Assembly (NCBI GenBank): GCA_002633005.1
Contig: NMRA01000006.1
Coordinates: 1,979,675-2,043,674 of the forward strand
DNA from: Phoronis australis
Lineage: Eukaryota; Animalia; Phoronida
DNA length: 64,000 nt
Direction: 5' to 3'
Under the pieces are notes generated by a model. The model was not told where the DNA came from. It searched no databases and was given only the letters and a program-made list of their open reading frames with translations. The translations under genes and the position numbers were made by a program. Shown here piece after piece: positions 61,201-63,349 of this stretch (its first letter is position 1; every line of letters starts with the position of its first letter).

Positions 61201-63349
61201 TGTCTGAATGCTTGTGACTGCTACTGTATGTCTGAATACTTGTGACTGCTACTGTATGTCTGAATACTTGTGACTGCTACTGTATGTCTGAATGCTTGTG
61301 ACTGCTACTGTATGTCTGAATACTTGTGGCTGGTAGTGTACCCTAGTCTCCATGTGTTGACTACTACTGCGGCTGCAGATGAAGGTCACTATGACTACAT
61401 ACCAAACTCGTCCTCCATTGCCATAACCACTTCAACGTGATCTAAACTGTCTAATCCCAGGTCTTCTATGAAGTGCGAGTCTACTGTTAACTGGAACAAC
61501 AGGAGAAAATGGGTAAAATCTAGTCACAAAAATATGAGAATTCAGATATGAGAAACTATCATTTTTGGGCCCGCGAGGTCTTCATTTTAAGCCGAATATC
61601 GGTTCCATTCCTTTCTGAAAATGCAAAATTCCGATCATCAGGCCCTAGAATTCAGCTCCAATGATTAAAGAACTCCCCAAAAATTTGAAATTACTTTTAA
61701 CTCACACAATCCCTGGAAAGTGTGATGACCTGGGGGAGACTCCTTACTCAAAAAAATACGCTTTCAGATGACACAGACAAGGGTCTTGAATTTACACCAC
61801 ATACTGGATACCTGTACACGAACAGACTTCCTCAATGGCACTTAGCATCTTGCATGATGTAGGAGATTTACAACCAGCTAACACTGTTACAAATCTGCCT
61901 TCAATGAAAAAAAATTTGATCCAGGGCACTCACATGACATGAAATATCAAAGTTGTTCCCTAGAGCCTCATTACAGGACGTCTAGGTCAAAAAACTAAGA
62001 GTTGCTTGAGACCAGACTGTTCACGCCAGCATATCACGGTGGGTAATTCTATGCACTGAGCTTGGTCACAAGCTGACAATTCTTTCCAAGTCCAGAATCC
62101 ACTTTTCGTTCGACTAAGGAAAACTTTGAGACCACTTTTACACTGTGTTACTTGGTGTAAAACGAAAGTTTGTTTCTTTGAGGGAACATGAGTTTCAACA
62201 GCTTAAACTTTACTTCAACAGCTTTATTGTAGACCTAGTTGAATCTATGTAGTGAACGTAGAGAGCCGACACAAGCAATAACCACATTATCCAACACTAA
62301 ACAGCAAATCTAATGAGCACCAAAGCAAAATGGCAATTCCACGTGACTCTCGTTACGTTTTGAGCCCACTTTCCTAAGTTTGTCTCTTGGTATCTTAGAT
62401 ATTTTAGGAATCCAACTGTTGCATGCTAGAACCCGTTCCTTCAAGCCACTGAATTACAACAAAAGCTGAAAATATTCAATCAACTTGGTTTACAAACACT
62501 ACGCAAAAAAGTGAAAAAACTTAAACATTCTCATCATTATGAGTGATAGGGTTGGACCAATAGTTGCCATTTGTTAACAGTTAAAACGCTACAAAAATGC
62601 GAAGAAAATGATTTGATTTTTATAACAATAGGCACGGTGTAACCATTGTTCTCCACAACAGAAAATTCAAACTCGACTGGAATTATAGAATCCATGTAAT
62701 TTTCGAAAATCCATGTCCAGTACTGTGTTAAGTCTTGTAATAAATGCACGTATCAAAAGTAAAATATGTCACAATTTACTAAAGAAATGACTAATCTCAG
62801 AATATTTCATACTCGGTACATAGGTTTTCAAACTCTACTTGTCATGACAAAATTCAAGGTTGATGCAGTGACAAGTCAAAGCAGGTTGTAGAGAACACTG
62901 GTTCCATAATTTGCGACTCGTCTGGGACATTGAGAATTTTATTCATACAAAATGCACACAGTAACCATCAACTTCATCTATTTTCTGCAACTACAGCTTA
63001 TATTATGTCAAAAACTACAATCAATAGAGTCTCAAATAAAAAAATGCTTAATTTTTCCACTGACATGGAATTGCCCAAAAATGAAAATCTAGAAGTACCT
63101 TTTCTGGATCAACTTTGTCGTACAACCTTAAAACGAGCAGTACTCTATCATGAACAAATTCAATAGAGAGCGGCGGCTTGCTGCCGAATGAGCGGGAGCT
63201 GCAACCCGTCTGAAACAATAAACAAATAATACCTTGTCAGCAGTTACTCTGTCAAAGTCTCCGCAAACTTTCAAAACGCGGTCGGTGATTTCTTGGATCT
63301 TTTCCGGAGTAACTTTTGTCGTGTATGCACACTGAGATCGAGTGACACT
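58189..63349 (-). CDS. NDUFAB1: Mitochondrial acyl carrier protein (NDUFAB1/mtACP), 5'-incomplete; exons 63349-63233 (2B) or 63209-63099 (2A), then 61490-61403 and 58280-58189
   Basis: Spliced translation ...[75 protein letters not shown]. It contains the phosphopantetheine attachment motif DLGLDSLD and the characteristic mtACP C-terminus. All junctions are GT-AG with matching phases (0, 1). The presequence exon was not found in the window. Confidence 0.95.
59190..60618. mobile_element. Modular element with internal degenerate tandem core repeats (Helentron-associated/HINE-like by architecture)
   Basis: ACAAGAG start; repeated cores such as TGGTCTGAAACTCATCATCAT...CATCTGCCAAAT...GGAGATAC (~59445, 59870, 60236, 60497) and CACTAGGGGGCAC; a short hairpin-like end before CCATAAAA. 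Classification is inferred. Confidence 0.5.
60841..61335. repeat. Minisatellite, 28-bp unit x~17.5, in NDUFAB1 intron
   Basis: AATACTTGTGACTG(G/C)TACTGTATGTCTG repeated. Confidence 0.95.
61403..61490 (-). CDS. NDUFAB1: NDUFAB1 exon 3 (88 nt) with phosphopantetheine-carrying Ser: [30 protein letters not shown]
   Basis: Acceptor TTTTCTCCTGTTGTTCCAG and donor TTTG|GTATGT; DSL motif. Confidence 0.95.
63099..63209 (-). CDS. NDUFAB1: NDUFAB1 alternative exon 2A (111 nt): [37 protein letters not shown]
   Basis: Acceptor TTTGTTTATTGTTTCAG and donor AAG|GTACTT; phase 0-0; matches the canonical vertebrate-like PPL...RVLxVLKLYDKIDPEK segment. Confidence 0.9.
63233..63349 (-). CDS. NDUFAB1: NDUFAB1 alternative exon 2B (117 nt): [39 protein letters not shown]
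   Basis: Acceptor TTTTTTTATTTATGTTGCCAG and donor AAG|GTATTA; phase 0-0, no stops; homologous to exon 2A over the ACP helix I region. Confidence 0.85.

What the first reader, a model, noticed from the sequence alone, without database searches (positions are those of the whole stretch)
63099..63349. Tandem duplicated, mutually exclusive exon-2 pair in mitochondrial ACP (NDUFAB1), separated by only 23 nt
Seen: two homologous phase-0 exons on the - strand, 2B (...[22 protein letters not shown]) and 2A (...[26 protein letters not shown]). Each has its own AG and GT, and each splices in frame to the DSL-motif exon. The spacer GTATTATTTGTTTATTGTTTCAG is 23 nt, shorter than typical metazoan spliceosomal introns, and retaining it would frameshift. 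Inference: only one exon can be used, giving two mature mtACPs with different helix I/N-termini and the same phosphopantetheine site. Knowledge: mtACP serves mitochondrial fatty acid synthesis and binds LYRM proteins (NDUFA6 and NDUFB9 in complex I, ISD11/LYRM4). Yarrowia uses two paralogs (ACPM1/ACPM2) at the two complex I sites. From memory, Drosophila mtACP1 also has two splice forms differing in this segment, whereas vertebrate NDUFAB1 has only the 2A type; this needs verification. If so, this may be an ancient bilaterian isoform switch that partitions ACP between partners and was lost in vertebrates. Neither exon appears in the ORF track.
Basis: partly seen in the sequence, partly recalled or inferred. 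Interest (0 to 1): 0.85.

Follow-up and report, generated by a model that had tools for sequence, protein, structure and literature searches.

The report
Two-exon switch in mitochondrial carrier protein
This animal's gene for the mitochondrial acyl carrier protein makes two versions by picking one of two twin exons set only 23 bases apart, an arrangement already known in insects and traced here through many other invertebrates, which likely separates a version fitted to respiratory complex I from a general-purpose one.

Summary
Confirmed. Exons 2B (63349-63233) and 2A (63209-63099) are phase-0 homologues 23 nt apart. In three RNA-seq runs of one study both splice to the same exon 1 and exon 3; 2B gives 56-81% of junction reads, no 2B-2A joint is listed and spacer depth is about zero. 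The pair is known in insects (mtacp1). New here: B-then-A models in molluscs, a nemertean, crustaceans and mites, B-type proteins in a priapulid, octopus, spiders and a tapeworm, and predicted spacers of 20-60 nt in 6 of 7 lineage types. The spacer is likely too short to splice; the best branch site for 2A lies inside 2B. Exon 2 encodes helix I. A types carry a hydrophobic stripe (columns -20, -13, -9); B types are polar there, like plant-type mtACPs. Column -13 is human Tyr85, a reported NDUFB3 contact. So A likely serves the complex I membrane-arm site and B likely the general pool; this is untested. All 3 named deuterostome sequences were A-type and this animal's phylum is unknown, so a bilaterian origin is inferred, not shown.

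The parts
63233..63349 (-). exon 2B (upstream alternative; end of presequence plus polar helix I); major isoform in these runs
   Evidence: AG/GT flanks; 85/56/80 reads to exon 3, 63/39/64 from exon 1; groups with B exons of other animals
63210..63232 (-). 23-nt GT..AG spacer: donor of 2B and pyrimidine tract/acceptor of 2A
   Evidence: sequence; no joint removes it and depth inside it is about zero
63236..63242 (-). candidate branch site for the 2A acceptor, branch A at 63237 (-28), inside the last codons of exon 2B; predicted, not mapped
   Evidence: best score among 32 positions; 211 of 5000 random windows score as high
63099..63209 (-). exon 2A (downstream alternative; vertebrate-like, hydrophobic helix I stripe)
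   Evidence: 29/41/62 reads to exon 3, 15/21/27 from exon 1; best PDB hit Drosophila complex I ACP, E 7e-9
61403..61490 (-). constitutive exon 3 with the DSL phosphopantetheine serine
   Evidence: Pfam PF00550; joints; boundaries
58183..58280 (-). constitutive exon 4: C-terminus and stop codon, followed 6 nt later by a 3'-UTR intron
   Evidence: joints 58278-61401 and 57306-58181
57000..57308 (-). non-coding exon 5 (3' UTR); its 3' end was not determined
   Evidence: joint in 79/75/107 reads

Best explanation
This is the mitochondrial acyl carrier protein (NDUFAB1) gene, whose mRNAs carry either exon 2B or exon 2A because the 23-nt spacer is likely too short to be spliced, and the two products likely divide the work, A fitted to the membrane-arm site of complex I and B serving as the general carrier. 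Shown: both exons are spliced between the same exon 1 and exon 3 and no read joint links them. Inferred (about 0.9): steric exclusion; the 2A branch site is predicted at -28, inside the end of 2B, so the U2 site for 2A and the U1 site for 2B overlap and only one can be used; a retained spacer gives a premature stop. Inferred (about 0.85): the pair is orthologous to insect mtacp1 a/b and at least as old as protostomes. Inferred (about 0.5): A's hydrophobic stripe on helix I packs on NDUFB3 and neighbours at the beta site, while B keeps a polar, ancestral-like helix I for fatty-acid synthesis enzymes and LYRM partners, possibly including NDUFA6 at the alpha site.
For: Splicing. Short spacers elsewhere: predicted 51-60 (termite-like loci), 24, 35, 40, 20 and about 41 nt in 6 of 7 lineage types; donor-to-branch distance under 50 nt is the published steric criterion (PMC5740500). 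Orthology: same B-then-A order; 33 B rows and 31 A rows fall on two sides of one branch, 98/87; window 2A is 61% identical to A rows and 39% to B rows, 2B 46% to B and 30% to A. Exon 2 covers the whole predicted helix I. Non-polar residues, A vs B: column -20 25/31 vs 2/33, -13 30/31 vs 0/33, -9 31/31 vs 1/33, within a 40-degree arc. Column -13 is human Tyr85 by the alignment, reported to H-bond NDUFB3 Trp22 (PMC7699753). The alpha copy touches only NDUFA6, and yeast ACP rescues viability but not complex I assembly (PMC8762328). The B profile's best PDB hits are non-animal mtACPs, the top one named mtACP2, which sits at the peripheral-arm site in plants (PMC8290278). Ten unnamed proteins hold two ACP domains in one ORF, an A-type then a B-type in those inspected, as if both were needed.
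Against: All 8 Drosophila complex I ACP chains are deposited as A, so B at the alpha site has no structural support. B-like ACPs are complex I subunits outside animals, so a polar helix I does not by itself exclude complex I. The AU test did not reject window 2A+2B as one clade (p 0.18, 24 columns). One locus has a 506-nt spacer (L055). 63 of 362 proteins hold B and A in one ORF, some on short transcript-like contigs, so exclusion is not strict in every lineage. 33 of 52 A-exon loci showed no B exon, 12 of them with 2 kb or more upstream. The branch motif inside B is not conserved in sequence across loci.
Confidence: 0.6

Rival explanations
1. Strict two-site split inside complex I: B binds NDUFA6 (alpha site) and A binds NDUFB9 (beta site), as ACPM1/ACPM2 do in Yarrowia and mtACP2/mtACP1 in plants.
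For: Distinct ACPs at the two sites in Yarrowia and plants. The B profile scores mtACP2 at 22.8 bits and mtACP1 at 14.6; A queries weakly hit only mtACP1/SDAP1 among non-animal ACPs (E 0.07-0.46; one further hit, 9iho, has no number in its name). Alpha-site density was weak in one Drosophila map.
Against: 8 of 8 Drosophila chains are deposited as A. B exceeds A in RNA (56-81%), more than a 1:1 split needs. Chaetomium and mammals use one sequence at both sites.
Confidence: 0.15
2. The isoforms are biochemically near-equivalent; the switch serves tissue or stage regulation, or different import and processing, since each exon also carries the presequence end.
For: B share differs among runs by reads (0.56-0.75 at the downstream joint, chi-square p 0.006). 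Core and LYR-facing columns (-19, -15, -12, -7, -6) are alike in A and B. B appears absent in some lineages and vertebrates do with A alone.
Against: The difference vanishes when distinct read starts are counted (p 0.77). The A/B differences fall on one helix face and are near-fixed across phyla.
Confidence: 0.2
3. Independent exon duplication in this lineage, convergent with insects.
For: AU test p 0.18 does not reject it; 2B alone found only 1 database candidate.
Against: Best tree is 18 log-likelihood units better with A and B apart; same order, phase and diagnostic residues in five protostome phyla.
Confidence: 0.04
4. 2B is a decaying pseudo-exon or an assembly artefact.
For: 2B alone has no Pfam or PDB ACP hit.
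Against: It is the major spliced form; no variant letter is listed in either exon in 551 reads, while the 3' UTR shows 10 listed differences within 126 nt.
Confidence: 0.01

Closest known systems
Insect mtacp1 (CG9160) tandem exons a/b (PMC551531, PMC2241641; Ragone et al. 1999 cited there, not read)
   Same: Same gene, same tandem homologous exons used mutually exclusively, same B-then-A order and diagnostic residues.
   Different: Those papers cover insects only, give no spacer length or mechanism in the passages read, call the flanking introns phase 1 (phase 0 here and in the insect-like loci), and propose no functional split.
Sterically enforced mutually exclusive exons (57 of 629 human clusters, PMC5740500; OGDH 4a/4b, PMC7969005)
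   Same: Donor-to-branch distance under 50 nt blocks joint inclusion.
   Different: In OGDH a distant branch point sits near the donor of a longer intron; here the whole intron is 23 nt and the predicted branch point lies upstream of the donor, inside the first exon.
Paralogous mtACPs at the two complex I sites (Yarrowia ACPM1/2; plant SDAP1/2)
   Same: Two ACP forms in one mitochondrion with different N-terminal helices.
   Different: Separate genes rather than splice forms; site-specific use is shown there and untested here.
Vertebrate NDUFAB1
   Same: A-type exon 2, shared exons 3-4 with the DSL serine.
   Different: Only A-type sequences were seen in vertebrate structures and the hagfish record.

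Membership tests
mitochondrial ACP / NDUFAB1 | ACP domain with DSL phosphopantetheine serine and similarity to NDUFAB1 | tested here: met
   PF00550 on exon 3; 2A hits NDUFAB1 chains at E 7e-9
mitochondrial ACP / NDUFAB1 | N-terminal mitochondrial presequence | not testable with these tools
   exon 1 lies outside the window and no genome is held
mutually exclusive exon pair (Hatje et al. criteria) | junction reads from each exon that bridge the other | tested here: met
   2B->exon 3 skips 2A; exon 1->2A skips 2B
mutually exclusive exon pair (Hatje et al. criteria) | no reads joining the two exons | tested here: met
   no joint or deletion listed at a threshold of 3 reads among 551 laid reads
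mutually exclusive exon pair (Hatje et al. criteria) | homologous, similar length, same phase | tested here: met
   117 and 111 nt, phase 0/0, 40% identity over 25 residues
insect mtacp1 a/b exon pair (orthology) | each exon closer to its counterpart in other species than to its neighbour | tested here: met
   identity means and tree 98/87; AU test alone inconclusive, p 0.18
sterically enforced exclusion | donor-to-branch-point distance under 50 nt | tested here: met
   whole spacer is 23 nt; the branch point itself is predicted only
two-site ACP split as in Yarrowia/plants | different ACP forms at the alpha and beta sites of complex I | not testable with these tools
   no partner sequences were available; Drosophila entries list A at both sites
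pan-bilaterian exon pair | B exon present in a deuterostome | tested here: inconclusive
   3 of 3 named deuterostome sequences A-type; none named among 120 rows; window's phylum unknown

The most novel reading that the evidence does not exclude
The last common ancestor of bilaterians already split mitochondrial ACP into a complex I membrane-arm form (A, hydrophobic helix I stripe) and an ancestral-type general form (B) by a spacer so short that the branch point for A sits inside exon B. The split was kept across protostomes, was recoded in one lineage as a two-ACP precursor, and was lost in vertebrates, whose single A form took over all roles. Flies then offer a genetic way to separate ACP's complex I role from its fatty-acid, lipoate and Fe-S roles.
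Probability: 0.35. Interest if true: 0.72.

Novelty: new member of a known kind. Interest (0 to 1): 0.45.

Why it matters
How one small carrier serves fatty-acid synthesis, Fe-S assembly and two complex I sites is an open question, hard to dissect in mammals because the single gene is essential. If A and B divide these roles, exon-specific deletions in Drosophila would separate them directly, and existing fly work needs rereading: one study cloned 'isoform B' cDNA, the structures model A, and one antibody targets the shared C-terminus. The breadth across protostomes and the very short spacer were not found in print.

Tried and rejected
No genome is held, so exon 1 and this animal's intron-size distribution could not be read; no RNA holder listed (X1 small share; X2-X4 added by species label); I relied on the lays, where 523 of 551 reads were 99% alike or better. 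2B alone found no ACP in PDB or Pfam and one database candidate. The search for related loci did not run. 9 of 61 pattern hits were not mtACP exons and were dropped. Phylum of the window: the Atlas look-up of the neighbouring dynein and exon-wise scoring were uninformative. Atlas on a two-ACP protein gave only ordinary ACP clusters. Earlier findings: three look-ups, nothing. A conserved branch motif in the B exon's last codons was considered and not supported. Tissue or stage switching: not supported once distinct read starts are counted. PMC9977279 text held no occurrence of the ACP terms. No complex prediction was run because no partner sequence was available. Exon 1->exon 3 double skipping could not be examined. 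Left out of the tree: Plectus and Lingula records (too divergent to class), all other unnamed proteins, redundant loci.

Full report
Observation. The minus strand holds two phase-0 exons, 2B (63349-63233, 117 nt) and 2A (63209-63099, 111 nt), separated by a 23-nt GT..AG spacer. They align with 10 of 25 identities. Exon 3 (61490-61403) carries the DSL motif; exon 4 (58280-58183) ends the protein and is followed by a 3'-UTR intron and exon 5. Exon 1 is outside the window and no genome is held. One search gave four runs: three raw RNA runs of one study added by species label, and one contig set of another study. In one search the joint 2A->exon 3 stands in 29, 41 and 62 reads and 2B->exon 3 in 85, 56 and 80. 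In one search both exons continue upstream into the same exon-1 end (2A 15/21/27 reads, 2B 63/39/64). No joint or deletion is listed there at a threshold of 3 reads. Depth over the spacer equals what flanking exon letters give, and only 6 of 551 reads lie wholly on the stretch. 2B is the larger share, 56-81%. No variant letter is listed in either exon, while 10 differences are listed within 126 nt of the 3' UTR (which shows 40 of 654 rows).

How exclusion likely works. Joining 2B to 2A would be in frame, so nonsense-mediated decay cannot police it; only the spacer can. The published steric criterion is a donor-to-branch distance under 50 nt (PMC5740500, passages); the whole spacer is 23. With a simple U2-pairing score of my own, the best branch candidate for the 2A acceptor is at -28 (63237), inside the last codons of 2B; 211 of 5000 random windows score as high. 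If used, it lies upstream of the 2B donor and next to the U1 site, which would make the two choices physically exclusive. This is predicted, not mapped, and the motif is not conserved in sequence in other loci. A retained spacer reads into a stop within 2A. OGDH 4a/4b is a published analogue (PMC7969005, abstract and outline).

Distribution. A scan of metagenome contigs for the A-exon end plus GT gave 61 loci; 52 were true A exons. A B exon lay upstream in 19 of 52 (3 of them weak), falling into 7 lineage types with predicted spacers of 51-60 (loci near-identical to named termite proteins; 6 of 11 measured), 24, 35, 40, 20, about 41 and 506 nt. These acceptors are predicted from sequence, without RNA. 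The other 33 showed no B; 12 of them had 2 kb or more upstream, so loss, divergence or a distant B occurs. Of 30 proteins looked up, 14 carried a species name. B-then-A gene models are named for Plakobranchus, Solemya, Hyalella, Halotydeus and Panonychus and Mytilus, Pomacea, Tubulanus, Darwinula, Notodromas, Armadillidium, Trinorchestia and Orchesella; B-type proteins for Priapulus, Octopus, Caerostris and Hydatigera. The three named deuterostomes, Ptychodera, Ciona and Eptatretus, were A-type, and none of the 120 rows bore a deuterostome name, though that profile was built from protostome-like rows. This animal's phylum was not established.

Orthology. On 64 rows of 24 columns, 33 B and 31 A rows lie on two sides of one branch (98/87), with window 2A among A and 2B among B. 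Single proteins were labelled beforehand by likeness, so part of this is circular; rows from tandem models were labelled by position. The AU test did not reject 2A+2B as one clade (p 0.18). Mean identities agree with orthology.

What differs. A fold of a mayfly B isoform puts helix I at residues 74-88, wholly inside exon 2. Core columns are alike in A and B. Three columns on one helix face differ: -20 (non-polar in 25/31 A, 2/33 B), -13 (30/31, 0/33) and -9 (31/31, 1/33); column -9 was fixed by my search pattern in 7 of the A rows. The window has F, L, L in 2A and E, K, D in 2B. By the human alignment, column -13 is Tyr85, which PMC7699753 (passages) places against NDUFB3 Trp22. That paper also puts an 'Asp92' near NDUFA6; by my count the nearest Asp is 91, column -7, kept in 31/31 A and 32/33 B. 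PMC8762328 (passages) states that the alpha copy touches only NDUFA6, that the beta pair assembles with ND5 and NDUFB2/3/6/8, and that yeast ACP rescues viability but not complex I assembly. A profile of 9 B exons ranks non-animal mtACPs first (mtACP2 22.8 bits), whereas the A profile's 23 strong hits are animal chains; the organisms of the non-animal entries (Arabidopsis, Polytomella, Euglena) are recalled, not given by the tool. In plants mtACP2 sits at the peripheral arm and mtACP1 at the membrane-arm tip (PMC8290278, passages). So B looks ancestral and A derived. Since derived A is shared by protostomes and deuterostomes, the duplication most simply predates their split; this is inference (about 0.65). 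Against a role for B in complex I: the 8 ACP chains of the four Drosophila entries (identified) are deposited as A, although alpha density was weak in one map (PMC10036122, passages). Against excluding B: B-like ACPs are complex I subunits outside animals.

Limits of exclusivity elsewhere. 63 of 362 proteins hold B then A in one ORF. Many are gene models, but some come from contigs of about 1 kb that look like spliced transcripts. Each A exon keeps its own presequence-like end, so such a product would likely be trimmed to mature A. Ten unnamed proteins hold two ACP domains; those inspected have an A-type then a B-type domain.

Literature. PMC551531 (passages) describes the pair in Drosophila, Anopheles and Apis and found no EST evidence in vertebrates and nematodes; PMC2241641 (passages) finds it in all insects studied. 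Ragone 1999 was seen only in reference lists. Also read as passages: PMC9977279 (no ACP terms found), PMC6895606, PMC9699679, PMC10718285. Searches listed no paper on the pair outside insects or on isoform-specific function; only listings were seen for most hits, subscription journals are largely missing, and no supplements were opened (the MitoComp2 records and the structure papers' proteomics tables may bear on this).

Verdict. Real and expressed; a new member of a known insect exon pair, with added breadth, a very short spacer and a testable structural lead. Interest 0.45.

Noticed in passing
proteins P0121, P0122, P0270, P0271, P0274-P0279: Ten unnamed proteins hold two ACP domains in one ORF; those inspected have an A-type ACP, a His-rich linker ending in an Arg-rich presequence-like stretch, then a B-type ACP. 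Their A domains group weakly with mite A exons (80/82). Possibly the splice switch recoded as a cleavable precursor.
   Followed up: partly
proteins such as P0284, P0290, P0301, P0315: ORFs on contigs of about 1 kb run exon 1-B-A-exon 3-exon 4, suggesting co-included transcripts (or chimeric assembly) in some lineages.
   Followed up: no
L001, L011, L012, L032, L033, L045, L047, L048, L051, L056, L057, L059: A exon with 2-4 kb upstream and no B exon detected: candidate losses.
   Followed up: partly
P0212 (Plectus), P0221, P0249: Divergent ACPs with a polar helix I and a longer loop; a nematode may hold a B-like form although PMC551531 found no EST evidence in nematodes.
   Followed up: no
window 58182-57309: 874-nt intron in the 3' UTR starting 6 nt after the stop codon, spliced in 79/75/107 reads.
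   Followed up: no
window about 24900-55000, + strand: Multi-exon dynein heavy chain gene, nearest Atlas clusters axonemal, convergent with the mtACP gene.
   Followed up: partly
window 60843-61340: 28-nt minisatellite, 17.8 copies, in the intron after exon 3.
   Followed up: no
window about 59100-60800 and 63320-64000: Interspersed repeats inside the introns that draw many 90-95% alike reads from elsewhere in the genome.
   Followed up: no
window 15692-16640: Assembly gap of 949 N; explains the ORFs open in all six frames there.
   Followed up: yes
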